From contig JBHPHA010000001.1 in assembly GCA_042569905.1 (NCBI GenBank), positions 8,515 through 72,514 of the forward strand: a stretch of DNA of 64,000 nt, in the 5' to 3' direction. The DNA comes from Patescibacteria group bacterium (GTDB lineage Bacteria; Patescibacteriota; Minisyncoccia; Moranbacterales; UBA9337). Both the position numbers and the translations under genes were made by a program. The notes beneath the pieces are model-generated. The model had not been told where the DNA came from, ran no database searches, and saw only the letters and a program-made list of their open reading frames with translations. This document shows positions 5,920 through 64,000 of the stretch, piece after piece; the first letter of the stretch is position 1; each line of letters opens with the position of its first letter.

Positions 5920-5986
5920 AAACAAAAAACACCTTAGTAAAAAGATGCTTTTGTTTATCTTGTCGGAGCACAGGGATTCGAACCCT
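5920..5986. repeat. direct repeat copy A, overlapping the 3' end of tRNA-Pro
   Basis: See 5770..5836. Includes the tRNA acceptor 3' strand and the T-arm 3' half. Confidence 0.6.
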
Positions 5987-6034
5987 GTCTACATGTACCC
6001 AAAACATGCGTGCTAGCCGTTGACACCATGCTCC
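5962..6034 (-). tRNA. tRNA-Pro (anticodon TGG)
   Basis: Hand-folded: acceptor CGGAGCA/TGCTCCG, anticodon stem CATGT/ACATG, loop TTTGGGT, T-arm CAGGG-TTCGAAT-CCCTG. 73 nt. CCA not encoded. Confidence 0.8.
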
Positions 6035-6282
6035 GTTATTATTTTATATTAACCGCTATCCATCTTCTACCTTTCCCGGTTTTTAATTCTTTTTCAAATT
6101 GCATTGCTTTAGCTCTGGTACTAAATTCCTTTCCATATACCAATCTCCACGGACCCTTTCCTTTTGTATATTTCGATATTCCGTTATTGTGCTGAAATAA
6201 TCGTCGCTCAATGTTATTTGTTTGACCAACATAAGTTTTGTCTTTTTCGTTTTTTAAATATAAACAAAAAACATAATCTTAT

Positions 6283-52409: not shown

Positions 52410-55154
52410 ATGTCAAACAAGGAAATACCAAAAAATTACGAACCAAAAAAAACAGAGGATGCTATTTACAAAGCATGGAAAGAGTCTGGATTTTTTAATC
52501 CAGATAATCTTGATGGTGAGCCATATTCAATTATGATGCCACCGCCAAATGTAACTGGAATTCTTCATCTTGGTCACGCCCTTGAAAATTCAATCATGGA
52601 TACAATGGCAAGATATCAAAGACTTCAAGGCAAAAAAGTTCTTTTGCTTCCCGGAACAGATCACGCTGCAGTTGCTACTCAAGCAAAGGTTGAAAAGCTT
52701 CTAGTTGAACAAGGTCACGCAAACCCAAGGGAAGAATTCGGACGAGAAGGACTTCTCGAAAAAATCAGAGAATATGCGGAACAATCAAAGTCGACTATTC
52801 TTTCTCAGGTTCAAAAAATGGGAACTAGCTGCGATTGGGACCGTTTGGCATATACCTTTGACGAAGAAAGAAGTAAAATGGTAAACACTGTTTTTGAAAA
52901 AATGTACAATGATGGATTAATTTACCGCGGACATAAAGTTGTGAATTGGTCAGTCAAGGGGCAATCAACTTGTAGTGATGACGAACTTGAGCATGCAGAA
53001 AGAGTTGGAAAACTATATACTTTCAAATATTCAAAAGACTTCCCTATTACAATTGCAACCACTCGCCCAGAAACTAAATTAGGTGACACTGCAGTAGCAG
53101 TAAACCCGACTGACAAAAGATATCAAGAATTCATTGGAAAAACTTTCACAGTAGATATTGGAGCAGCGAGACCACTTGGAATCAAGGTAATTGCCAATGA
53201 TGAGGTTGACCCTGAATTTGGAACAGGTGCAGTTGGAGTTACTCCAGCCCACAGTCCAGTTGACTTTGAGATGTATGAAGTTCAAAAAGCCAAACAGGAT
53301 CCAATTGAACTTATTCAAGTTATTGGTGAAGACGGAAAGATGACATCCACAGCTGGTGAAAAATATGCAGGACTACCAGTCCTTGAAGCCAGAGAAAAAT
53401 TCGTTGAATTCTTACAAGAGAATAATCTCTTAGAAAAAGAAGAAGATGTAACTCAAAACGTTGGAACATCAGACAGATTCGGTGATGTCGTTGAAGCGCT
53501 TCCAAAAACTCAATGGTTTATTGATGTGAACAAAAAAATCCCTGGACGTGAAAAAAGCCTCAAGGAGCTTATGATCGCAGCAGTAAAAACTGGACACAAC
53601 GGTGATGCAGCTCAAAAAGTCACTATCAACCCAGATAGATTTGAAAAGATATATTTCAATTGGATTGAAAACCTTCGTGACTGGTGTATCTCTCGTCAAG
53701 TCTGGTGGGGTCATCAAATTCCTGTTTGGTATCGACTTAAATCTGGGAAACTAACCAGAGGAGAAATAGGTACGCTTACAGACCATGTTGAAATATATTG
53801 CGGATCAAACCCTCCCACTCCAATACAGGAAGATCCCGATGTTAAAGACGATAAAAGCTGGACTCAAGACCCTGATACACTAGATACCTGGTTTTCTAGT
53901 GGACTCTGGACTTTCTCAACACTCACAGAAGAAGAGCGAAAAACTTTTCATCCAACCAATTGGATGCAGATGGGTCACGAAATTCTTTTTTTCTGGATGG
54001 CAAGAATGATTCTTATGAGCACATACTTTATGGATGAAATTCCTTTTAAGGAGGTTTATATCCACGGAATGCTTCGAGATGAAAAAGGGAATAAGTTTTC
54101 AAAATCAGCTGGAAACAATCTTGACCCAATTGAAATGATTGAAAAATATGGAACAGATGCTCTCCGACTAGGACTAATCACAGGAATTGCTCCTGGAAAT
54201 GACTCCAAATTCTATGAAGAAAAAGTTGAGAGCTCTCGAAACTTCGTAAATAAACTTTGGAATATTTCAAGATATATCCTACAAAAAGAATCTATTACTG
54301 AAGAAATTTCAATCAACAAAAATAACCTTACCATCGCTGACAGATGGATTACTCGAAAAATGTCTGTTTTGATTGAAGATGTTACCAAAGATTTGGATAG
54401 AGCTAGATTTTCTCAAGCTAGTGAAAAAATTCATGAGTTCACAAAAAATGATTTTGCAGATTGGTATCTTGAAATTTCAAAATTCAAAGATAACACAAGC
54501 GAAAAAAATATCATTCTTCTCACAATACTCAAGGACTTATTGAAACTTTGGCACCCATTCATTCCTTTTGTAACTGAAACTATTTGGAAAGAAATTGAAG
54601 GAAATGACTTATTGCTAATTCAAAAATGGCCAAAAAAGGAATATTATTTGGATACATTTGACATAGCATCCCAATCTGACGAAATAAACTTTGAACCAAT
54701 TGTTGAAATCATTCAAGCAGTAAGGAACATAAAAACTGAAAACAAGATTGAGCCTGCTAAAAAAATAAAGCTATTCATCAATACAGGAAGCTCATCTATT
54801 CAAAGCTTCGATGAAATTATCAAAACTCAAGAGAATCTAATCAAGAGCCTCAGAACTGGAGTTGAAGAAATTTCATATGGGTCAACTACTGAAAAATCAA
54901 TTTCAAAAACCACTTCCTACGGAATAACAGTATCAATTCCACTTGAAGGACTAATCGACACAGAAAAAGAGCGAGCTGAAAAAGAAAAAGAAGTTAAAAA
55001 CTTAGAAGGCTACATCAATTCACTTGAAGGTAAACTGACTAATGAGCAATTCATTTCCAGAGCACCAGAAGAAGTTATTGCTCGAGAAAAAGAAAGTCTT
55101 AAAAAAGCAAAATCCCAGTTATCTGAGATCGAAAAATATTTGAAATCATTATAA
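52410..55154 (+). CDS. valS: valine--tRNA ligase
   Basis: HIGH motif PPPNVTGILHLGHA, KMSKS-like KFSKSAGN, C-terminal coiled coil. 914 aa. Confidence 0.9.
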   Translation: MSNKEIPKNYEPKKTEDAIYKAWKESGFFNPDNLDGEPYSIMMPPPNVTGILHLGHALENSIMDTMARYQRLQGKKVLLLPGTDHAAVATQAKVEKLLVEQGHANPREEFGREGLLEKIREYAEQSKSTILSQVQKMGTSCDWDRLAYTFDEERSKMVNTVFEKMYNDGLIYRGHKVVNWSVKGQSTCSDDELEHAERVGKLYTFKYSKDFPITIATTRPETKLGDTAVAVNPTDKRYQEFIGKTFTVDIGAARPLGIKVIANDEVDPEFGTGAVGVTPAHSPVDFEMYEVQKAKQDPIELIQVIGEDGKMTSTAGEKYAGLPVLEAREKFVEFLQENNLLEKEEDVTQNVGTSDRFGDVVEALPKTQWFIDVNKKIPGREKSLKELMIAAVKTGHNGDAAQKVTINPDRFEKIYFNWIENLRDWCISRQVWWGHQIPVWYRLKSGKLTRGEIGTLTDHVEIYCGSNPPTPIQEDPDVKDDKSWTQDPDTLDTWFSSGLWTFSTLTEEERKTFHPTNWMQMGHEILFFWMARMILMSTYFMDEIPFKEVYIHGMLRDEKGNKFSKSAGNNLDPIEMIEKYGTDALRLGLITGIAPGNDSKFYEEKVESSRNFVNKLWNISRYILQKESITEEISINKNNLTIADRWITRKMSVLIEDVTKDLDRARFSQASEKIHEFTKNDFADWYLEISKFKDNTSEKNIILLTILKDLLKLWHPFIPFVTETIWKEIEGNDLLLIQKWPKKEYYLDTFDIASQSDEINFEPIVEIIQAVRNIKTENKIEPAKKIKLFINTGSSSIQSFDEIIKTQENLIKSLRTGVEEISYGSTTEKSISKTTSYGITVSIPLEGLIDTEKERAEKEKEVKNLEGYINSLEGKLTNEQFISRAPEEVIAREKESLKKAKSQLSEIEKYLKSL

Positions 55155-55158
55155 TTTA

Positions 55159-55190
55159 AAAAGGGCCTAGTGCCCTTTTTATTTTTTTCT
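55159..55190 (+). terminator. Rho-independent terminator
   Basis: aaagggc-ctagt-gcccttt followed by a T-rich run. Confidence 0.6.
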
Positions 55191-55241
55191 CATAGTTCTG
55201 TATACTAAGTAGTATAATAAATAAATTTTAAAATTTACATA

Positions 55242-55826
55242 ATGAAATCAATAATTCAATCCCTTATTTACGGAATGTTTTGTGCAATAGCTGCACTACT
55301 GCTTCAGTTCACACTATCCATATTTTTAATTGATTTTACTAGACCAGAAGACTTTCTTCTGATTCAAAACTCTGCACTGTTTATTTTTGCAGCTGTTCTG
55401 AGTGAGGAGTTTTCTAAGTTCATATTCACCTATAAAGTCATTAAGTCTTTTTCTATCAGCGGGTCTGACTTGATTGCAAACTCTTTTATTGCTGGAATTG
55501 GATTCTCAGCCATTGAGTTAACGCTCTTTATCTATAAATATGAGACGATCACCCAAGTTGATTTCTCAGAAATAGTCAAAGTCACACTTCTTCATATATT
55601 AACATTCGGAATAATTGGATACATCAGTTCATTTCCAAAAAAACCACTTACGATTTTCACCCAAGCTATCATAGTCACAACTGGATTACATTTTGCGTTC
55701 AACTTTTCCAACATCAAGGAGGGAATCTTATTCGAATACACATCAGTTGGTATTATACTACTACTTATACTTTTAAATATTTACAACCTAAGCACTATTA
55801 AAAACAGGCTTGCGAATTCACAATAA
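55242..55826 (+). CDS. PrsW/CPBP-like intramembrane metalloprotease family membrane protein
   Basis: Multi-TM with EExxK (SEEFSK) and HxxxN (GLHFAFN) motifs. Tentative. Confidence 0.35.
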   Translation: MKSIIQSLIYGMFCAIAALLLQFTLSIFLIDFTRPEDFLLIQNSALFIFAAVLSEEFSKFIFTYKVIKSFSISGSDLIANSFIAGIGFSAIELTLFIYKYETITQVDFSEIVKVTLLHILTFGIIGYISSFPKKPLTIFTQAIIVTTGLHFAFNFSNIKEGILFEYTSVGIILLLILLNIYNLSTIKNRLANSQ

Positions 55827-55937
55827 TTATTATATAATTATTGTGAATTAATAAAGTTATATACAATAGTATTTTGAGGTTATTTTCTGACGATTTTAAG
55901 CAAAAAACCAAAAACTACTATCTTTAATAAAGATCAT

Positions 55938-56465
55938 ATGACAAAGCAAAAAAAATCATTTATGGAACGATTAACTGGTTCTAAAAAGATTGAAGAAATG
56001 GAAGAAGAAAATTTGGAGCATATGAATGTAGCATCTGAAGATACTGCACCTGTTTCAATTCCAGCTTCTCCAGAATTAAATTATGATGAATCATCTGACC
56101 AAAATTGGATGACAAATAAGGAAGAAGCTGATGATGATGGACAGTTAACCATCGATGTCTATCAAACTGACACTGAAGTTGTCATCAAATCAACCATCGC
56201 AGGAGTCAAGCCAGAAGACTTGGACGTTTCAATCAATAACGATATGGTTGTTATTAAGGGAGAAAGAACAAATGAAGAAGAAATAAAAGAAGAAGATTTT
56301 TATTACCAAGAATGTTATTGGGGATCTTTCTCAAGATCGATTGTACTTCCTGTTGATGTTTTATCTGAAAAGGCTGAAGCTTCTCTAAAAAACGGAATAC
56401 TTACTCTTAGACTTCCTAAAGCAGAAACAAACAAAATTAAAAAAATTCAAGTTCGTGGCTTCTAG
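55938..56465 (+). CDS. Hsp20/alpha-crystallin small heat shock protein
   Basis: ACD core: LTIDVYQTD...KPEDLDVS...GSFSRSIVLP...NGILTLRLPK. Confidence 0.8.
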   Translation: MTKQKKSFMERLTGSKKIEEMEEENLEHMNVASEDTAPVSIPASPELNYDESSDQNWMTNKEEADDDGQLTIDVYQTDTEVVIKSTIAGVKPEDLDVSINNDMVVIKGERTNEEEIKEEDFYYQECYWGSFSRSIVLPVDVLSEKAEASLKNGILTLRLPKAETNKIKKIQVRGF

Positions 56466-56608: not shown

Positions 56609-57880
56609 ATGCTTAAAAAAATATTACTATCAATATCAGTAATTATAACTTGTGGTATGCCCACAGGGTATCTTTTAGCATCTGGAAGCAGTGATATGCT
56701 TATCCTAAAAATAGATGGACAGCAAGATATAACTATTTATAGCGAGGAGATCAATAATTGGATTAATTACAATCCCGAACTTCAATACAACAAAAACTAT
56801 CATTCATCCGTAGAAAACACAGAATATTGCCCAGAGAATATCATTATTTGCAACTTGTCTAAAAGAATAATCGATGGATTACATATCCAAAAAGTCGACA
56901 AAGTAAACATCGACAAAAAAAAGATTGAATTATTTCTAGAAGACTTAGCTAGTAAAGTAAATCAAGACCCTATTGATGCTACATTTACTATTACAGGTAG
57001 CAGAGTTTCAGCTTTTTCAACAGAAAAAGAAGGGATGCAGCTAAACGTCAAAAAGAGCGCAGAGGCAATATATTCCAAATTACAGGACAATTACACTAGT
57101 ACGCCAACAATAAACCTCACAATTGAAAAAATTAGTCCTGAGGTGACATCAAAAGATGTTAATAAGCTTGGAGTTGAAACATTAATCGGAGAAGGTAAAT
57201 CAAATTTCTACGGCTCAACAAGTAGCAGGATTCATAACATCGCAGTAGCTACCAGTCGCTTTGACGGACTACTCATTAAGCCTGGTGAAGAATTTTCATT
57301 CATAGAAAATCTTGGCCCAGTTGACGGAGAAAGTGGATACAAACAGGAACTCGTTATTAAAAAGGATAAAACTGAGCTCGATTATGGCGGAGGAGTTTGC
57401 CAGGTCTCGACCACAGCATTTCGGGCTGCAATCTATAGCGGCCTCGAGATAACTGCCAGAAGAAATCATGCCTACGCTGTTAGCTACTATAATCCTCAAG
57501 GTATGGATGCAACGGTCTACATTCCAAGACCTGATTTAAAATTCATCAACAACACACCGGGATATATACTCATACAAACAGAAATAAACATACCTAAAAG
57601 AGAGTTGATTTTCAGATTTTATGGAACTGACATAGAGAGGAAAACAGAAGTTGATGGACCATACATAACGTCAAGAGAACCAGATGGCTCGATGAAGGCC
57701 ACCTTTACTCAAATTGTTTATGATAAAGACAGTAACGTAATCATTAAAGATATTTTCAATAGCAGTTACGACTCACCAAACAACTACCCTCACCCAGGAG
57801 ACGAGAAAAAATTAACAAAAAAACCAAAAGATTGGTCCAATAAGCAATGGAAAGATTACAGGAGAGCTAATGGAATATAA
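56609..57880 (+). CDS. VanW-family protein
   Basis: PGEEFSF...GY..ELVI...GGGVCQVSTTAFRAA...NHAY...GMDATV...DLKFINNT matches the VanW domain pattern. N-terminal signal/TM. Confidence 0.7.
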   Translation: MLKKILLSISVIITCGMPTGYLLASGSSDMLILKIDGQQDITIYSEEINNWINYNPELQYNKNYHSSVENTEYCPENIIICNLSKRIIDGLHIQKVDKVNIDKKKIELFLEDLASKVNQDPIDATFTITGSRVSAFSTEKEGMQLNVKKSAEAIYSKLQDNYTSTPTINLTIEKISPEVTSKDVNKLGVETLIGEGKSNFYGSTSSRIHNIAVATSRFDGLLIKPGEEFSFIENLGPVDGESGYKQELVIKKDKTELDYGGGVCQVSTTAFRAAIYSGLEITARRNHAYAVSYYNPQGMDATVYIPRPDLKFINNTPGYILIQTEINIPKRELIFRFYGTDIERKTEVDGPYITSREPDGSMKATFTQIVYDKDSNVIIKDIFNSSYDSPNNYPHPGDEKKLTKKPKDWSNKQWKDYRRANGI

Positions 57881-57931
57881 AAACAGCATTTACCATATTA
57901 GGTAATTGCTGTTTTCTTATTTTTCGACACG

Positions 57932-58525: not shown

Positions 58526-59086
58526 CTATTTATTATGAATACTCTCCATGAACTCATCCACCCTATCAGTTCTAATAATAATCGCATCAGCAATATTAAC
58601 AAATTCAATACTGTTATCTTCTGTGTCGTAAATGATAAAAGTCGCCTCCCTAGAAATATTTCCTGCAATCTCTCCAGGATTTGCTACTAAGCAATCACCA
58701 ATCATCTTCTCTTCTTTAAAGTGAGTATGCCCAAAAAATACCGCATCAAACTCACCAGACTTCGCAATTGGCTCAGCCAATTCAGGATAATGACTTAAGA
58801 ACAGCCTTTTTCCATCAACTTCAACTGAGTCATAAGTTCGTTCACTTAATTTTAGATTACTACCATCTTCTAGAGATATTTTCATTACCACTGCCTTATC
58901 TCCAATATTATTTCCCCACACAGAAAAAACTGGCACGTTAAAGTTGGCTAGAATCTTTGCTACAGTCCCCATCACCAAATCACCCAAACAAAGAACCTGC
59001 TCCACCTCACGCACCTTCGCTTCATCCAAAGCGCAGATTAAATTATGAGTATTGTCATGTATATCTGAAATAATTGCTACTTTCAT
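58526..59086 (-). CDS. metallophosphoesterase (YfcE/MJ0936 family)
   Basis: MKVAIISDIHDN...GDLV...GNN...GHTH motifs. 186 aa. Confidence 0.7.
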   Translation of the reverse strand: MKVAIISDIHDNTHNLICALDEAKVREVEQVLCLGDLVMGTVAKILANFNVPVFSVWGNNIGDKAVVMKISLEDGSNLKLSERTYDSVEVDGKRLFLSHYPELAEPIAKSGEFDAVFFGHTHFKEEKMIGDCLVANPGEIAGNISREATFIIYDTEDNSIEFVNIADAIIIRTDRVDEFMESIHNK

Positions 59087-59911: not shown

Positions 59912-60157
59912 TTACATACCCATCATTGTCTTAGTGAAATTCAAAATAATCGTTAGTATAAGAGAACTAGCAATAATGATAAAAGGAAGAAGTACAAATA
60001 TAATTCCTTTTTTCTTTAGTGCTTTTTTTCTGTCAACTTCTTGATCATTCGCACTTGCTGCTTTTATTAAAAAAACAATTCCAATAGGAATAAATATAAA
60101 AATCCCTACGACTCCAATTATTCCCGCTAAACCAAGTAACCATCCTATAAGTGCCAT
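59912..60157 (-). CDS. small 2-TM membrane protein
   Basis: 81 aa. Two hydrophobic helices separated by a KKALKKKG loop. Confidence 0.35.
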   Translation of the reverse strand: MALIGWLLGLAGIIGVVGIFIFIPIGIVFLIKAASANDQEVDRKKALKKKGIIFVLLPFIIIASSLILTIILNFTKTMMGM

Positions 60158-60485
60158 TTTTTTATTTTAACTAATAATTATTTCCTATTTATATCATACC
60201 ACAAAGCTATATATTGTTTTCAAAAAGTCTCCTGCAAAAATTTTATTTCTTATGACTTCCTCCATAAAATATCAGTGACTTCTTCTTCATAATTCTATTA
60301 AGAAGAGCTATTCCAAGAATTATCATCGCTACAAAAATTTCCCCAAACAATCTCAAGTCTTCAGAAAGTCTATCTGGCAATGATACGAGAACATAAAAAA
60401 TAAAACTACTACCTAACTGAAAAGCTTCCAATTAAAAAAGTCTGTATGAATTTATCATACAGACTTTTGATTTATTTAAACTATT

Positions 60486-61784
60486 TTAGATTTCAAATGC
60501 ACCATAGCATCCCAAACCATAAGCCACACCAGTAAAAGCATTTTTGTGAACAACCTCCTTTCCAGGAAACATCCTAGTAAATACACTTTTAACACACGGG
60601 ATATGTGACGACCCGCCAGTTAGAACTACAGTATCAATCTGATCCCTTTTGACTCCAGCACTCAGAATCACTTCCTCTACACAAGACCTCACACTATCAA
60701 TCTTCGAAGCGATTATTGCCTCAAATTCGCTTCTAGACATCGCCTCATCTATTACCAAATTCCTTTCTTTGAAAATAACTCTAGTATTTTCCAACATAGA
60801 AAGATCTTGCTTTGCAGTCTCAATTGACCTAAACAGCATATATCCATAGTTATCATCTATCAAATTCTCCAGATTCTCAATCAACTGCTTTTCATGATCG
60901 TCTGCCAAGTATTTGCACCGCTTAATCTGATCCATTATTTTAGGAGTTCTCAGTCTCGGTATTTGATGCCATTCACAAAGCTTCTTATAGAGCATAGGCG
61001 ACATATCTACTCTTTCATCTGTTTTCCTTATTATAGAATCCATTGTCCTGAGCCTTGTAAATCTACCAAAATACCTAGTTAATTTCTCCCACATAATCAA
61101 AGAATCAAAATCATCTCCGCCTATGTGCACTCCAGAAACTGCCAAGATACTCGGCTCATTGGAAATCACCACTCTTTCATTATTCATTCCAACTCTTGCA
61201 ATTGCAAAATCAGATGTTCCTCCGCCTAAATCACCTACGAGAATATTTTTTTCTCCTTTTAAATCACTCGATTTTTCATATGCGACAGCAGCTGCAATAG
61301 GTTCCTCCTGAAGATAAATCTCTTTAAATCCTGCTATCTTAGCAGCAGATATCAATCTCTCCTCTGCTAATTTATCAGCTTTAGGATCTTCAGAAAAAAC
61401 AACAGGCCTACCTATGACAACCCTATCAACCCTTCTTCCAACATCTAATTCTCCTCGAGACTTTATCTCTCTGAAAATAATCGCAACCACTTCGTCCAGC
61501 TTATAAGCTTTTGACCCAAACGATGTACTACTGAAAGTTTTATCTGGAAGAAAACTTTTTATTGACTGAACATATCTCCCGAAAGCATCATTTTCGATAT
61601 ATGCATCAACTGCCTCCTGACCAAAATAAAATCTTCTGTCATCATCATCAAAATAAATCACCGTTTTCATAGTAGGGCCACTAATATTAGCCTTGTCTAT
61701 ATCGATAACCCTCACAATTCCATTAATATTCACAGATAACACAGAATTGGATGTTCCAAAATCTAAACCAAAAAAATCACTCAT
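60486..61784 (-). CDS. Hsp70-family ATPase, nucleotide-binding domain only (YegD-like)
   Basis: GLDFGTSNS phosphate-1, DLGGGTSD phosphate-2, LTGGSSHIP adenosine motif. 432 aa with no substrate-binding domain. Confidence 0.7.
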   Translation of the reverse strand: MSDFFGLDFGTSNSVLSVNINGIVRVIDIDKANISGPTMKTVIYFDDDDRRFYFGQEAVDAYIENDAFGRYVQSIKSFLPDKTFSSTSFGSKAYKLDEVVAIIFREIKSRGELDVGRRVDRVVIGRPVVFSEDPKADKLAEERLISAAKIAGFKEIYLQEEPIAAAVAYEKSSDLKGEKNILVGDLGGGTSDFAIARVGMNNERVVISNEPSILAVSGVHIGGDDFDSLIMWEKLTRYFGRFTRLRTMDSIIRKTDERVDMSPMLYKKLCEWHQIPRLRTPKIMDQIKRCKYLADDHEKQLIENLENLIDDNYGYMLFRSIETAKQDLSMLENTRVIFKERNLVIDEAMSRSEFEAIIASKIDSVRSCVEEVILSAGVKRDQIDTVVLTGGSSHIPCVKSVFTRMFPGKEVVHKNAFTGVAYGLGCYGAFEI

Positions 61785-61831
61785 CAGGCTCTCCTACTCA
61801 GAAAATTCAAAAAAATAATAGTTTCCATTAC

Positions 61832-62899
61832 TTATCTTGGACTGACTATCGTGGTACACAAATAACCATCATGAACCAGATCGCGATCATCCACATAATC
61901 TAACTCAATTTTAGATATATAATCCATAGAAACCTCGGATAATCTTGGACAATAATCATCTGGAGTATTAATACCTCCATTATGCAAAAAAGCTCTCGTA
62001 ACACACCCACTACTGCAGGTATCTACAAAATCACAATCCTTGCAATATGATACACTTCTCTCCCTGACTCGCCTAAATCCTGAGGAGTTATATACATCAT
62101 TTAAGCTAATTTTAGGATTCAACAAGTTTCCACCAGACCACTGAGCTCCTTTCAAAAATGGATAACAGCTCGTTTCCATATTTTCATGAATTCTACAAGA
62201 AAAATGTCCCGCAGGACAAGAACCCGACTCTATACCTAAAGGTCCCGCAAAAACACTGTCTAAACAATGAAAAGTTACTTTATCCGAAAGAAATTGAATT
62301 ATTTCCCAAGCACGCTTGCCTGAAATTCTCAATTTCTCATCACCTCTACCAACACACCTGAACCAATTTATTCTCCAATTGGCTTCATATTTTCTTGCTA
62401 TATCTATCAATTTAACAATATCATCATTTGTAGTCTCCGAGTTAACACAAGTCACTACACTTCTAGAAATATTCCTAGAAGCCAATATCTCCAAAGCATC
62501 CGTTGCCCATTGCCAAGCCTTCTTGTGATTACGAAAATCACAATGTCTTTTTTCTTCCGGGAAATCCAGAGAGATGTCAACATCGTGAAATAATCTCCCT
62601 ATCTTTTCAGGTCTCATCATCACGATAGTAGACCCATTAGAAGTTATAGCTTGCTTTATACGAGGATAGCTATCCGTAATATACTCACATAAATCCACAG
62701 AATTCGGGTTTATAAAAAATTCTCCCGTACCATAATTAATCTCATCCACATAAGAGCAAATCTTGTCAGCAACAAACTTCAACTGAGCAAATGTATACTC
62801 AGGAGCACGACTACTGCTAGCATTATAACAATGCTTACAAAATTGATTACATCGTCCAAATCCCCAGCCGATTTTTTTGATCTCACTTACACTCTTCAA
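61832..62899 (-). CDS. radical SAM protein with a C-terminal SPASM/twitch-like Cys cluster
   Basis: CNQFCKHC (CxxxCxxC) N-terminus. C-terminal CKDCDFVDTCSSGC...DDYCP. Confidence 0.65.
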   Translation of the reverse strand: MKSVSEIKKIGWGFGRCNQFCKHCYNASSSRAPEYTFAQLKFVADKICSYVDEINYGTGEFFINPNSVDLCEYITDSYPRIKQAITSNGSTIVMMRPEKIGRLFHDVDISLDFPEEKRHCDFRNHKKAWQWATDALEILASRNISRSVVTCVNSETTNDDIVKLIDIARKYEANWRINWFRCVGRGDEKLRISGKRAWEIIQFLSDKVTFHCLDSVFAGPLGIESGSCPAGHFSCRIHENMETSCYPFLKGAQWSGGNLLNPKISLNDVYNSSGFRRVRERSVSYCKDCDFVDTCSSGCVTRAFLHNGGINTPDDYCPRLSEVSMDYISKIELDYVDDRDLVHDGYLCTTIVSPR

Positions 62900-62909
62900 C
62901 TTACACCTC

Positions 62910-63308
62910 CTAGCAATTGTCTAGTTCTAAAAATTCATTTTTCAACCACTCAGGATATTCTCCTGATTGAATCTCTTCTTTGGTTACCCACTTATAGCTT
63001 TCATGCTCCGAACTGAGATTGATTTCACCTCCAATAACTTCGGCTAAAAAAGTTATGCCAACCAGGTGAAGACTTTGCTTTACAAAACCCCACACTCTGG
63101 TTGGCTCTTTAATTTTGACACTCAAGCCAACTTCTTCAGAAACTTCTCGCGCTAAGCAATCCTTAATATCCTCGCCAAATTCCAATCTTCCTCCTGGAAT
63201 ATCAGCCTCATTAGGATTCACATCTTCTAGGTCACTTTTATGTAAAATAAGGTAGCGACCATCGCCATCTTTAATTATAGCCTTAGCAGCGACTCCGAAT
63301 TCGTTCAT
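62910..63308 (-). CDS. NUDIX hydrolase
   Basis: Nudix box GGRLEFGEDIKDCLAREVSEEVGL. Confidence 0.75.
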   Translation of the reverse strand: MNEFGVAAKAIIKDGDGRYLILHKSDLEDVNPNEADIPGGRLEFGEDIKDCLAREVSEEVGLSVKIKEPTRVWGFVKQSLHLVGITFLAEVIGGEINLSSEHESYKWVTKEEIQSGEYPEWLKNEFLELDNC

Positions 63309-63353
63309 ATATTTTAATTTATTAATTCTTTATTAGTATGATTAATAATATCG

Positions 63354-63992
63354 CTAAATCGATAATAAATCAAACTTATTAGCTATCTCTTGCCAAGCAA
63401 TGCAATGTTCATCCTTCAGTATGCGCAATTTTTCGGATATCTCAGTATCAGAAAAATCATCATGGATCATGCTCATAACAACCTCGTAAATACTCAAGTC
63501 GATTTTTCTCATCTCCTTATGAAGATCAAGAAGTACTAACTCCTTATCTCGAGCAACAATCCTTGGAGCAGTCAACGGCTCAGATACTCTATAATAAAGC
63601 GCACTATTGAAGCCATTCCATGCTTTCAAGTGCCTAAAAACTCTTCTTGCACGATCATCCTTTATCTCGTACTTATAATTTGGATAATCTCGACCACCAA
63701 TCAAGCCTTCCTCCAATAACTTAAATGTTATGGGGTCTCCAGCGTGTACGAAAAGTGGCTTACTAACAATATCAGTGAGGCAAAACTCGGCATCCTTCAG
63801 AAAAATGAGATTTTGACGCAGTTCATCCATATTCACATACGGATCAAAACCAATAAACCCCATTAGTGTTATTATGCCTAACTTCTTCAATACACCTAGT
63901 GCATCCATATTCACATCAACAGTTGTACCTTTTTTGAATGTATCCAGTTGCCTCTGGCACCCAGATTCTATTCCAACGCTTACTGCGTACAA
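63354..63992 (-). CDS. radical SAM-like protein, C-terminal portion
   Basis: AVSVGIESGCQRQLDTFKKG resembles the mid-region of the radical-SAM barrel. The CxxxCxxC N-terminus would lie beyond the window. Confidence 0.4.
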   Translation of the reverse strand: MYAVSVGIESGCQRQLDTFKKGTTVDVNMDALGVLKKLGIITLMGFIGFDPYVNMDELRQNLIFLKDAEFCLTDIVSKPLFVHAGDPITFKLLEEGLIGGRDYPNYKYEIKDDRARRVFRHLKAWNGFNSALYYRVSEPLTAPRIVARDKELVLLDLHKEMRKIDLSIYEVVMSMIHDDFSDTEISEKLRILKDEHCIAWQEIANKFDLLSI

Positions 63993-64000
63993 GCCAGCTT

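What the first reader, a model, noticed from the sequence alone, without database searches (positions are those of the whole stretch)
60243..63992. Radical SAM / NUDIX / radical SAM-SPASM / Hsp70-NBD gene cluster with small membrane proteins, at the window edge
The co-oriented minus-strand run reads, in order:
- a partial radical-SAM-like gene (N-terminus outside the window);
- a NUDIX hydrolase;
- a 355-aa radical SAM enzyme with CxxxCxxC and a C-terminal SPASM/twitch-like Cys cluster;
- a 432-aa Hsp70-family ATPase consisting only of the nucleotide-binding domain;
- two small membrane proteins (62 and 81 aa).

SPASM radical SAM enzymes usually mature peptides or cofactors. A truncated Hsp70 ATPase and a NUDIX enzyme are not standard partners.

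This combination may be an uncharacterised modification or biosynthetic pathway, or a conflict system. No obvious Cys/Ser-rich precursor peptide is seen.
Basis: partly seen in the sequence, partly recalled or inferred. Interest (0 to 1): 0.6.

Follow-up and report, generated by a model that had tools for sequence, protein, structure and literature searches.

The report
Uncharacterised nucleotide-modifying radical SAM operon
A four-gene operon in a Patescibacteria genome combines two radical SAM enzymes, a MutT-like NUDIX hydrolase and an Hsp70 protein that is only the ATPase domain; its relatives sit among nucleotide kinases and pyrophosphatases, so it most likely builds or remodels a modified nucleotide rather than a peptide, by chemistry nobody has characterised.

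Summary
The large ORFs are real and correctly identified. An intrinsic terminator 18 nt after the Hsp70 gene ends the unit at four genes: partial radical SAM (rSAM), NUDIX, rSAM/SPASM, Hsp70 nucleotide-binding domain (NBD). The 62-aa ORF is probably spurious. Neither small membrane ORF has a homologue in related loci.

The 355-aa enzyme belongs to a rare SPASM family with a C-terminal VHxxYLCT signature. It occurs in Patescibacteria, DPANN archaea and gut Clostridia.

- In 55 of 64 related loci it lies within six genes of nucleotide- or phosphate-handling genes, such as thymidylate-kinase-like kinases, pyrophosphatase, NUDIX and phosphatases.
- It is found fused to NUDIX, pyrophosphatase, a methyltransferase and an SDR (short-chain dehydrogenase/reductase) epimerase/dehydratase. 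Its paralogue is fused to a thymidylate-kinase-like kinase.
- The partial gene belongs to a family whose profile matches OxsB best among solved structures (E 2e-37). OxsB is the B12 rSAM enzyme that remodels deoxyadenosine phosphates in oxetanocin biosynthesis.
- There is no precursor peptide, no peptide-recognition domain, no curated family membership and no viral copies.

The Hsp70-NBD (YegD-like) link recurs but is facultative, and it always comes with the OxsB-like gene.

Best reading: an uncharacterised small-molecule pathway that modifies a nucleotide. Substrate, product and biological role are inferred, not shown.

The parts
63354..64000 (-). 3' part (214 codons) of a large OxsB-like, B12-type radical SAM gene (cluster 'c1'). 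The N-terminus, the CxxxCxxC motif and any cobalamin domain lie outside the window.
   Evidence: tblastn gives 26-34% identity over about 130-217 aa to 500-600-aa genes next to the SPASM enzyme in about 30 loci. The full-length Staskawiczbacteria homologues (L003, L004) carry PF02310 B12-binding at 61-75 bits plus PF04055; the gut L029 homologue scores 66.2. A family profile that includes this fragment hits OxsB (5ul2) at 131.9 bits, E 2.3e-37.
62910..63308 (-). MutT-type NUDIX hydrolase, 132 aa, with an intact Nudix box.
   Evidence: PF00293 scores 59.6 bits. The nearest solved structure is the MutT-related protein 3grn. It is 47-53% identical to NUDIX genes that directly follow or flank the OxsB-like gene in archaeal L023 and L067 and in L140.
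61832..62899 (-). Radical SAM/SPASM enzyme, 355 aa (cluster 'c0'). It belongs to a rare family with the C-terminal motif (L/K)VH(D/E/N)xYLCT.
   Evidence: Pfam and NCBIfam. Invariant Cys motifs across 26 homologues. AlphaFold2 model at pLDDT 94.8, aligning full-length to the SPASM enzyme anSME at TM 0.69. Only 33 representatives at E<=1e-30 among 1.84 billion.
60486..61784 (-). NBD-only Hsp70 (YegD-like) ATPase, 432 aa, with ATPase motifs intact.
   Evidence: PF00012 scores 112.8 bits. NF008673 scores 172.9 bits, below its 331 cutoff. Invariant DFGTSN, IK, EP, DxGGGTxD and GGS motifs in the five cluster-linked homologues. Adjacent to the OxsB-like gene in L003, L004, L022, L023, L103 and L140.
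60436..60468 (-). Intrinsic terminator that closes the four-gene unit.
   Evidence: 14-bp perfect stem, 5-nt loop, U6 tail on the minus strand. dG -18.3 kcal/mol, z -6.09, 0 of 200 shuffles fold as well.

Best explanation
The unit is a four-gene operon (OxsB-like B12-type radical SAM, MutT-like NUDIX, SPASM radical SAM, YegD-like Hsp70 ATPase domain). It acts on a free nucleotide, not on a peptide.

Inferred mechanism:
1. The SPASM enzyme uses the 5'-deoxyadenosyl radical to abstract a hydrogen from the sugar or base of a phosphorylated nucleoside. Its auxiliary clusters supply or accept an electron, giving a dehydration, deoxygenation, oxidation or similar step.
2. The OxsB-like enzyme performs a second, cobalamin-assisted radical step on the same scaffold, either a rearrangement or a C-methylation.
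3. The NUDIX enzyme cleaves the (d)NTP form to NMP plus PPi. This either matures the product or keeps the analogue out of the cell's own nucleotide pool.
4. In related loci, thymidylate-kinase-like kinases, pyrophosphatase, CYTH and phosphatases set the phosphorylation state.
5. The Hsp70 ATPase domain is an accessory ATP-dependent helper tied to the OxsB-like/NUDIX module. Its role is unknown.

Shown: the gene identities, the operon boundary, the conserved neighbourhoods and the fusions. Inferred: the substrate class. Speculative: the individual chemical steps and the biological role (antimetabolite, antiviral or other).
For: 1. Neighbourhood. Of 64 loci carrying a motif-bearing family member, 55 have at least one nucleotide- or phosphate-handling gene within six genes. 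Counts: OxsB-like rSAM 34 (35 with the window), thymidylate-kinase-like 31, His-phosphatase 24, pyrophosphatase 14, amidohydrolase of the nucleobase/5'-deoxyadenosine-deaminase group 14, NUDIX 6.
2. Fusions. NUDIX::c0 (P0096, also L021), c0::NUDIX (P0221), c0::pyrophosphatase (L001/P0008), SDR NAD-epimerase/dehydratase::c0 (P0142), c0::methyltransferase (P0149, P0160), thymidylate-kinase-like::paralogous SPASM rSAM (L073, L075, archaeal L017), amidohydrolase::OxsB-like rSAM (L022).
3. The c1 family profile matches OxsB at 131.9 bits, E 2.3e-37, over about 400 residues. The next solved structure scores 75.9, and the class B methylases TokK, CysS and TsrM score 39, 35 and 25. OxsB remodels dAMP/dADP/dATP together with a phosphohydrolase (PMC7074753).
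4. Closest synteny. Staskawiczbacteria L003 and L004 read c0, TMK (84.9 bits in L003), B12-rSAM, PPase, Hsp70-NBD; L003 continues with CYTH (74.6 bits). Archaeal L023 reads c0, amidohydrolase, rSAM, NUDIX, TMK, with Hsp70-NBD on the opposite strand.
5. Peptide route disfavoured. The enzyme starts directly at the rSAM core with no RiPP recognition element. No PqqD-like partner appears among the genes scanned. The gaps are too short for a precursor.
6. The cluster kinases all score below the dTMP-kinase equivalog cutoff (46.8-82.0 against 83.25). This fits dedicated paralogues acting on an unusual nucleotide.
7. The family alignment has invariant or near-invariant Arg at 123, 176, 236, 281 and 302, which is compatible with an anionic substrate (inference).
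Against: - No substrate, product or activity is known for any member.
- The fold and sequence of the SPASM enzyme resemble peptide-modifying enzymes (anSME, SuiB, SkfB, CteB) at least as much as nucleotide enzymes (BlsE, viperin, MoaA).
- The window itself shows no kinase or pyrophosphatase. The upstream genes are off the edge.
- The window's own OxsB-like gene is seen only as a C-terminal fragment, about 29% identical to the Staskawiczbacteria homologues in which a B12 domain was detected. It has only two database homologues above 40% identity.
- The locus counts are inflated by about 40 closely related gut Clostridia MAGs with one shared gene order.
- NDP-sugars rather than plain nucleotides would also fit the SDR fusion, NUDIX and pyrophosphatase.
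- The Hsp70-NBD is present in only 5 of 64 loci.
Confidence: 0.6

Rival explanations
1. Viperin-like immunity. The pathway makes a chain-terminating or otherwise toxic nucleotide analogue inside the cell as an anti-phage measure. Kinases charge it to the triphosphate and NUDIX limits self-poisoning. This is a role-level variant of the best explanation.
For: - Weak rSAM-core similarity to prokaryotic viperins (PADLOC pVip 35.7 bits; viperin structures among fold hits).
- The NUDIX hits the defence-candidate model PDC-S07 at 64 bits.
- The kinase-plus-rSAM arrangement parallels kinase-associated pVips (PADLOC model name).
- The second rSAM partner is swapped within one >50%-identity clade at a syntenic chromosomal site, a sign of diversification.
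- Gut versions are flanked by a TnpX-like serine recombinase.
- The distribution across bacteria and archaea is patchy.
Against: - Not a viperin family member (NF038283 scores 26.8 against a cutoff of 180).
- No known defence genes nearby. The window neighbours are ValRS, PrsW, Hsp20, VanW, TsaD/E and PolA.
- No PADLOC system match.
- A constitutive NUDIX and several phosphatases would work against accumulation of a triphosphate.
- No phage-challenge data exist.
Confidence: 0.2
2. Housekeeping or salvage function in reduced genomes. The rSAM enzymes supply an essential nucleotide or nucleotide-derived cofactor. Examples would be an oxygen-independent deoxygenation or methylation route to a deoxynucleotide, or a cofactor precursor that Patescibacteria, DPANN archaea and small-genome Clostridia cannot otherwise make.
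For: - Enriched in ultra-small symbionts.
- Embedded among core genes in the window and in L074 and L076.
- Repeated pairing with thymidylate-kinase-like genes, one scoring 82.0 against the 83.25 cutoff.
- The SDR::rSAM fusion recalls the dehydratase-plus-reductase logic of AprD4/AprD3 deoxygenation (AprD4 is among the PDB hits; the AprD3 pairing is from my own knowledge).
- TrmB-type regulators lie next to the cluster.
Against: - The family is rare: 33 representatives at E<=1e-30 and 212 at E<=1e-10 among 1.84 billion. It is far from universal in these phyla.
- Partner sets vary greatly between close relatives.
- There is mobile-element flanking in gut loci.
- The kinases are divergent paralogues rather than clear Tmk orthologues.
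Confidence: 0.13
3. Peptide or protein maturation. This would be the classical SPASM role, as in a RiPP maturase or an anSME-like enzyme acting on a protein.
For: The best sequence and fold matches are anSME, SuiB, SkfB and CteB. The best NCBIfam match is the mycofactocin maturase MftC (95.8 bits).
Against: - MftC scores far below its cutoff of 265.
- No RiPP recognition element, no PqqD/MftB-like partner and no room for a precursor gene in the operon.
- No conserved small ORF in 76 related loci.
- The small ORFs in the window lie after a terminator and are unconserved.
- All recurrent partners and fusions are nucleotide or phosphate enzymes.
Confidence: 0.05
4. The Hsp70-NBD gene is a bystander. 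It is co-transcribed by accident and has no role in the pathway.
For: - About 70 of 80 metagenome loci anchored on this Hsp70-NBD family have unrelated neighbours, including most of the closest relatives at 42-49% identity; L077 (49%) is an exception.
- Only 5 of 64 SPASM-family loci contain it.
Against: - It lies next to the rare OxsB-like gene in the window, L003, L004, L022, L023/L146, L103 and L140, and within 4 kb in L100. This spans bacteria and archaea and different gene orders.
- All five SPASM-family loci that have it also have the OxsB-like gene.
- The same NUDIX blast cluster lies near it in 7 loci. NMP-kinase-like genes lie near it in L077, L097 and L140 (the L140 gene has only a P-loop motif by eye, no Pfam hit).
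- In the window it is inside the unit, 47 nt after the SPASM gene and before the terminator.
Confidence: 0.15

Closest known systems
Oxetanocin A and albucidin biosynthesis (OxsB with the OxsA HD phosphohydrolase; AlbA rSAM with the OxsB-like AlbB)
   Same: - A B12-type rSAM most similar to OxsB among solved structures (131.9 bits).
- A second rSAM in the same cluster, as in albucidin.
- A phosphohydrolase partner acting on nucleotide phosphates.
- Substrates there are dAMP/dADP/dATP (PMC7074753).
   Different: - The second rSAM here is a SPASM enzyme, not biotin-synthase-like.
- The phosphohydrolase is a NUDIX, not an HD protein. HD proteins occur only in some gut loci.
- OxsB's N-terminal domain I is absent; the alignment starts at OxsB residue 137.
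- The similarity is remote.
- The hosts are Patescibacteria, DPANN archaea and gut Clostridia, not Bacillus or Streptomyces.
- No product is known.
Viperin and prokaryotic viperins (pVips) with adjacent nucleotide kinases
   Same: An rSAM acting on an NTP, with a neighbouring NMP kinase supplying or charging the substrate. The rSAM cores are weakly similar.
   Different: - Viperins have no SPASM domain.
- The viperin family model is not met (26.8 against 180).
- Here there are two rSAM enzymes plus NUDIX or pyrophosphatase.
SPASM/twitch rSAM enzymes acting on small molecules (BlsE, BtrN, DesII, AprD4, MoaA)
   Same: An rSAM with one or more auxiliary clusters acting on a sugar or nucleoside scaffold. 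BlsE, BtrN, DesII and MoaA appear among the fold hits for the SPASM enzyme. AprD4 is a sequence hit of the OxsB-like family, not of the SPASM enzyme. The SDR fusion (P0142) echoes the AprD4/AprD3 dehydratase-reductase pair.
   Different: Sequence identity is 12-16%. The family-specific C-terminal VHxxYLCT motif is not a feature I know from these enzymes. The AprD3 pairing comes from my own knowledge and was not tested here.
Peptide-modifying SPASM maturases (anSME, MftC, SuiB, CteB, SkfB)
   Same: They share the overall fold and the CX2CX5CX3C auxiliary-cluster motif. They are the best sequence and fold matches.
   Different: There is no RRE domain, no precursor and no partner chaperone. All the genomic context is nucleotide-related.
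YegD (E. coli NBD-only Hsp70)
   Same: The architecture is the same: an Hsp70 nucleotide-binding domain with no linker, basket or lid. The best NCBIfam match is the YegD-type model.
   Different: It scores below the equivalog cutoff (172.9 against 331). YegD has no assigned function and no reported link to rSAM or NUDIX genes; a search for 'YegD' plus 'radical SAM' returned 0 papers.

Membership tests
Radical SAM superfamily (355-aa gene) | CxxxCxxC cluster motif, a SAM-binding GGE-type motif, and PF04055 above its gathering score. | tested here: met
   C17/C21/C24 are invariant in 26 homologues. The GTGE motif is at residues 57-60. PF04055 scores 49.7 against 29.5.
SPASM subfamily | C-terminal CX2CX5CX3C plus a downstream Cys and upstream Cys ligands for two auxiliary [4Fe-4S] clusters; TIGR04085/PF13186. 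| tested here: met
   C286, C289, C295 and C317 are invariant and C299 is near-invariant. Upstream C229, C236 and C246 are present in the window protein but are not invariant across the family. TIGR04085 scores 27.3 against 27, which is marginal. Many homologues carry PF13186. The model aligns full-length to anSME at TM 0.69.
RiPP maturase (MftC, PqqE, AlbA type) | Family HMM above cutoff; an RRE domain or PqqD-like partner; an adjacent precursor peptide. | tested here: not met
   MftC scores 95.8 against 265, AlbA 37.1 against 850. The protein starts at the rSAM core. No PqqD-like hit appears among the neighbours scanned. No conserved small ORF was found.
Viperin / pVip | Viperin family HMM above cutoff, and no SPASM domain. 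| tested here: not met
   NF038283 scores 26.8 against 180. PADLOC pVip scores 35.7 bits over the rSAM core only.
OxsB-like / class B (cobalamin) radical SAM (partial gene) | N-terminal B12-binding Rossmann domain plus an rSAM core with CxxxCxxC; similarity to OxsB. | tested here: inconclusive
   The window holds only the C-terminal 214 residues. The Staskawiczbacteria (L003, L004) and gut (L029) homologues have PF02310 at 61-75 bits plus PF04055. The archaeal ones have Radical_SAM_N2 instead. The family profile hits OxsB at 131.9 bits. Cobalamin binding itself is not testable here.
NUDIX / MutT | Nudix box GX5EX7REUXEEXGU; PF00293; the MutT equivalog model. | tested here: met
   The Nudix box is intact and PF00293 scores 59.6 against 21.1, so superfamily membership is met. 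The MutT equivalog is not met (36 against 97.9), so the specific substrate is unknown.
YegD-type NBD-only Hsp70 | Hsp70 NBD with intact ATPase motifs and no substrate-binding domain; NF008673 above cutoff. | tested here: inconclusive
   The architecture and motifs are met. NF008673 scores 172.9 against 331, so it is not an equivalog member.
Known anti-phage defence systems (PADLOC 2.0) | Component HMMs of a defined system co-occurring. | tested here: not met
   Only isolated weak hits were found: PDC-S07 at 64 bits, pVip at 35.7 and PDC-M61B at 34.3. There is no system.

The most novel reading that the evidence does not exclude
The VHxxYLCT SPASM enzymes and their OxsB-like partners make a previously unknown class of sugar- or base-remodelled nucleotide, for example a ring-contracted, deoxygenated or C-methylated analogue. 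Ultra-small symbionts and gut Clostridia would use it as an antiviral or antibacterial chain terminator. The NBD-only Hsp70 would be repurposed as a dedicated ATP-driven helper of the B12 radical enzyme/NUDIX module, giving the YegD family its first function. A more extreme version is that the SPASM enzyme catalyses a ribonucleotide deoxygenation independent of ribonucleotide reductase.
Probability: 0.2. Interest if true: 0.85.

Novelty: new variant of a known kind. Interest (0 to 1): 0.6.

Why it matters
- Radical SAM enzymes that act on free nucleotides are few (viperin, MoaA, OxsB, QueE and similar), and each revealed new chemistry with antiviral or cofactor relevance.
- This is a compact, rare but widely transferred cassette. 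It joins a new SPASM clade to a new OxsB-like clade.
- Fusions to NUDIX, pyrophosphatase, a kinase, an SDR and a methyltransferase amount to a ready-made hypothesis for enzymologists.
- It occurs in Patescibacteria and DPANN archaea, where specialised metabolism is thought to be minimal, and in uncultured human-gut Clostridia.
- It offers the first genomic handle on the function of NBD-only Hsp70 (YegD-like) proteins, through their recurrent link with NUDIX, NMP-kinase and B12-rSAM genes.

Tried and rejected
- **Extending the contig.** Exact-sequence look-ups of the window's rSAM, Hsp70, NUDIX and the identical NCBI protein P0001 found nothing on record. The 13 kb missing from the 77-kb contig could not be recovered.
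- **Full-length version of the partial gene.** A homologue search gave only two partial relatives at 50% and 44% identity.
- **Curated family assignment.** No NCBIfam model reached its cutoff for any component.
- **Defence annotation.** PADLOC gave only weak single-domain hits.
- **Viral origin.** No relatives were found in IMG/VR.
- **Literature.** Seven searches combining radical SAM/SPASM with thymidylate kinase, NUDIX, CYTH, Patescibacteria/DPANN/CPR or YegD found no description of this family or neighbourhood. An eighth search found a review that covers YegD only.
- **Small membrane ORFs as partners or precursors.** Rejected on three grounds: the terminator, no homologues, and no conserved small or transmembrane ORF after the Hsp70 gene in 80 loci.
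- **The 219-aa gut-cluster protein as CYTH.** I guessed this from an ExExK-like motif. It has no Pfam hit and no BLAST similarity to the true CYTH of L003, so it is left as unknown.
- **The HD protein of some gut loci as an OxsA homologue.** No PDB hit by single-sequence search, so this is undecided.
- **Hsp70-NBD as an electron-transferring activase.** Not supported, because there is no conserved Cys.
- **Repeats or mobile-element boundaries around the window locus.** None found.

Full report
**What is in the sequence**

Profile searches confirm the four large ones.

- A 132-aa NUDIX (PF00293, 59.6 bits) with an intact Nudix box.
- A 355-aa radical SAM (rSAM) enzyme (PF04055, 49.7 bits). It has C17xxxC21xxC24 and a C-terminal C286xxC289x5C295x3C299...C317 block. 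The SPASM domain model is just met (27.3 against 27).
- A 432-aa Hsp70 protein that matches only the nucleotide-binding half of the Hsp70 profile. Its best curated match is the NBD-only 'YegD-type' model, at 172.9 bits and below its cutoff of 331.
- A 214-codon ORF open at the window edge, with weak matches to the C-terminal parts of B12-type rSAM families.

An AlphaFold2 model of the 355-aa enzyme is confident (pLDDT 94.8). It aligns along its full length with the SPASM enzyme anSME (TM 0.69).

**Operon boundary**

A perfect 14-bp hairpin followed by U6 lies 18 nt after the Hsp70 stop codon (dG -18.3 kcal/mol, z -6.1). The 62-aa TTG ORF starts 5 nt after the U-tract.

The transcription unit is therefore partial rSAM, NUDIX, rSAM/SPASM, Hsp70-NBD, with gaps of 45, 10 and 47 nt. 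The 62-aa ORF is probably spurious and the 81-aa ORF is a separate gene. Neither has a homologue in any related locus. No small or transmembrane ORF is conserved after the Hsp70 gene in 80 other loci.

**The SPASM family and its neighbours**

The enzyme is 100% identical to an NCBI protein from a 'Patescibacteria group bacterium' on a 77-kb contig. The family is rare. Among 1.84 billion representative proteins, 33 score E<=1e-30 and 212 score E<=1e-10.

An alignment of 26 members shows the invariant rSAM and SPASM cysteines. It also shows a family-specific C-terminal motif, (L/K)VH(D/E/N)xYLCT, and several invariant arginines. No curated NCBIfam model is met; the best is MftC at 95.8 against 265. 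The nearest solved structures are generic SPASM enzymes.

A scan of one genome per species returned 72 loci from Patescibacteria, DPANN archaea (Woese-, Micr- and Aenigmarchaeota), many uncultured gut Clostridia and a few other phyla. I called ORFs and clustered them by BLAST. I then annotated the recurrent clusters with Pfam and NCBIfam.

Of 64 loci with a motif-bearing member, 55 have at least one nucleotide- or phosphate-handling gene within six genes:

| Partner | Loci |
|---|---|
| Large B12-type rSAM | 34 (35 with the window) |
| Thymidylate-kinase-like kinase | 31 |
| His-phosphatase | 24 |
| Second SPASM paralogue | 17 |
| Inorganic pyrophosphatase-like | 14 |
| Amidohydrolase (nucleobase/5'-deoxyadenosine-deaminase group) | 14 |
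| NUDIX | 6 |

Guanylate-kinase-like, HprK-like, PHP, HAD and HD proteins also recur. About 40 of these loci are related gut MAGs with similar gene orders, so the counts are not independent.

**Fusions**

Independent gene fusions tie the same functions together:

- NUDIX fused N-terminally (P0096, L021) and C-terminally (P0221) to the SPASM enzyme.
- Pyrophosphatase fused to it (L001/P0008).
- An NAD-dependent SDR (short-chain dehydrogenase/reductase) epimerase/dehydratase fused to it (P0142).
- Class I methyltransferases fused to it (P0149, P0160).
- A thymidylate-kinase-like domain fused to the paralogous SPASM rSAM (L073, L075, archaeal L017).
- The amidohydrolase fused to the B12-type rSAM (L022).

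The cluster kinases all score below the dTMP-kinase equivalog cutoff (46.8-82.0 against 83.25). They look like dedicated paralogues.

**The partial gene**

Its 214 residues align at 26-34% identity with the C-termini of the large rSAM that neighbours the SPASM gene in about 30 loci. The full-length Staskawiczbacteria and gut homologues have a B12-binding domain (61-75 bits) plus the rSAM core. The archaeal ones have a Radical_SAM_N2 domain instead.

A profile of this family, with the window fragment included, matches OxsB far better than any other solved structure. OxsB scores 131.9 bits (E 2.3e-37) over about 400 residues. The next hit scores 75.9, and the class B methylases TokK, CysS and TsrM score 39, 35 and 25.

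OxsB is the cobalamin-dependent rSAM that contracts the deoxyribose ring of dAMP/dADP/dATP in oxetanocin A biosynthesis. It works together with a phosphohydrolase. The related albucidin cluster pairs an OxsB-like enzyme with a second rSAM (PMC7074753). The window's own N-terminus is off the edge, so its B12 domain cannot be checked. Its closest database relatives are only two fragments.

**The Hsp70-NBD**

It belongs to the known NBD-only YegD-like class, whose function is unknown (PMC13580251). Its ATPase motifs are intact, and it has no conserved cysteine.

In the forward direction it occurs in 5 of 64 SPASM-family loci: the window, two Staskawiczbacteria and two Woesearchaeota. All five also have the OxsB-like gene.

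In the reverse direction, I took 80 metagenome loci anchored on Hsp70-NBD relatives at 30-49% identity. About 70 have unrelated neighbours, so the link is facultative. The exceptions are consistent with one another:

- L140 has Hsp70-NBD, a NUDIX 53% identical to the window's, a P-loop protein and the OxsB-like rSAM.
- L103 has the OxsB-like rSAM adjacent.
- L100 has a B12-rSAM, three NUDIX genes, a His-phosphatase, an SDR and a CYTH.
- L097 has a TMK (84.8 bits) and a NUDIX.
- L077 has a guanylate-kinase-like gene and a NUDIX.

The OxsB-like family is rare, yet the adjacency recurs in both domains of life with different gene orders. Chance is therefore unlikely, but the role is unknown. ATP-driven Hsp70-fold reactivases of B12 enzymes (DdrA, EutA) are an analogy from my own knowledge, not a tested homology.

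**Context and mobility**

The window neighbours are core genes: ValRS, PrsW, Hsp20, VanW, TsaD, TsaE and PolA. The locus is syntenic with L074, which has ValRS and Hsp20 downstream of a 59%-identical SPASM gene. There, however, the partners are a second SPASM rSAM, a TMK-like kinase and TrmB rather than OxsB-like, NUDIX and Hsp70-NBD.

Partner swapping within one clade at one chromosomal site points to an accessory, diversifying function rather than a fixed housekeeping one. So do TnpX-like serine recombinases beside several gut clusters and the patchy cross-domain distribution. No relatives occur on viral contigs, and no defence system is recognised.

**Interpretation**

The evidence best supports a small-molecule pathway. 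Two radical enzymes remodel a phosphorylated nucleoside, or possibly an NDP-sugar. The NUDIX, and in related loci the kinases, pyrophosphatase, CYTH and phosphatases, control its phosphorylation state.

The status of each claim is as follows.

- Shown: gene identities, operon boundary, conserved neighbourhoods, fusions.
- Inferred: the substrate class.
- Speculative: the specific reactions and the biological role, whether antimetabolite, antiviral or essential metabolite.

The peptide-maturase reading is disfavoured. There is no RRE (RiPP recognition element), no partner chaperone, no precursor, and every partner is a nucleotide enzyme.

I rate this a new variant of a known kind: nucleotide-modifying rSAM clusters of the oxetanocin/albucidin and viperin type. 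Interest is 0.6.

Noticed in passing
window 60436-60468: Perfect 14-bp hairpin with a U6 tail directly after the Hsp70-NBD gene. It is a strong intrinsic terminator. The stem is flanked by A4 and T4, so it could work in both directions.
   Followed up: yes
window 60243-60431 and 59912-60157: The 62-aa TTG ORF starts 5 nt after the terminator U-tract and is probably not a gene. The 81-aa hydrophobic ORF has only a weak sub-threshold match to a Mycoplasma ICE pilin-like protein (21.7 bits against a cutoff of 40). Neither is conserved in related loci.
   Followed up: yes
window 58526-59086 (-): A YfcE-type metallophosphoesterase (Metallophos_2, 86.8 bits) lies on the same strand downstream of the operon. 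Phosphoesterases are common in related clusters, but this one is in a separate unit and is not conserved next to the family.
   Followed up: partly
window 52410-56465 versus L074 18025-21062: ValRS (36.5% identity) and Hsp20 (59.6%) lie downstream of the SPASM gene in both genomes. The chromosomal site is conserved while the partner genes of the SPASM enzyme have been exchanged.
   Followed up: partly
L030, L045, L058, L059, L062 (gut Clostridia) and L003 2869-4833: TnpX-like large serine recombinases (PDB 2mhc, 113.9 bits) lie a few kb from the cluster. Integrase-like ORFs lie upstream in L038, L040 and L047. The gut versions may ride on mobile elements.
   Followed up: partly
L077, L090, L097, L100 (metagenome loci anchored on Hsp70-NBD): NBD-only Hsp70 genes sit next to MutT-like NUDIX genes. 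NMP-kinase-like genes are also present in L077 (guanylate-kinase-like, 54 bits) and L097 (TMK, 84.8 bits); L090 has only the NUDIX. In L077, L090 and L097 no rSAM gene is in view. L100 has a B12-rSAM with three NUDIX genes, CYTH, a His-phosphatase and an SDR, but no SPASM enzyme. This may be a separate NUDIX/kinase/Hsp70-NBD module.
   Followed up: partly
L006-L011, L013, L014, L024 (Patescibacteria): A protein of about 720 aa, with a metallo-beta-lactamase domain plus two cyclic-nucleotide-binding domains, lies convergent to the SPASM gene in 8 loci. This hints at cyclic-nucleotide regulation or hydrolysis.
   Followed up: no
L018-L021: A more elaborate variant with three to four rSAM/SPASM paralogues, a NUDIX (fused in L021), an FkbM methyltransferase, a PTP-type phosphatase and an MBL-HEAT protein.
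   Followed up: no
window 57874-57921: A 21-nt inverted repeat (86% complementary, 6-nt loop) between the convergent VanW-like gene and the 174-aa ORF. It is probably a shared terminator.
   Followed up: no
window 1-64000: GC skew is strongly negative (-0.2 to -0.4) wherever genes are on the minus strand. It is near zero at 50-58 kb, where genes switch to the plus strand. GC rises to 0.42 at 38-40 kb. Rfam finds only one tRNA (5963-6035).
   Followed up: no
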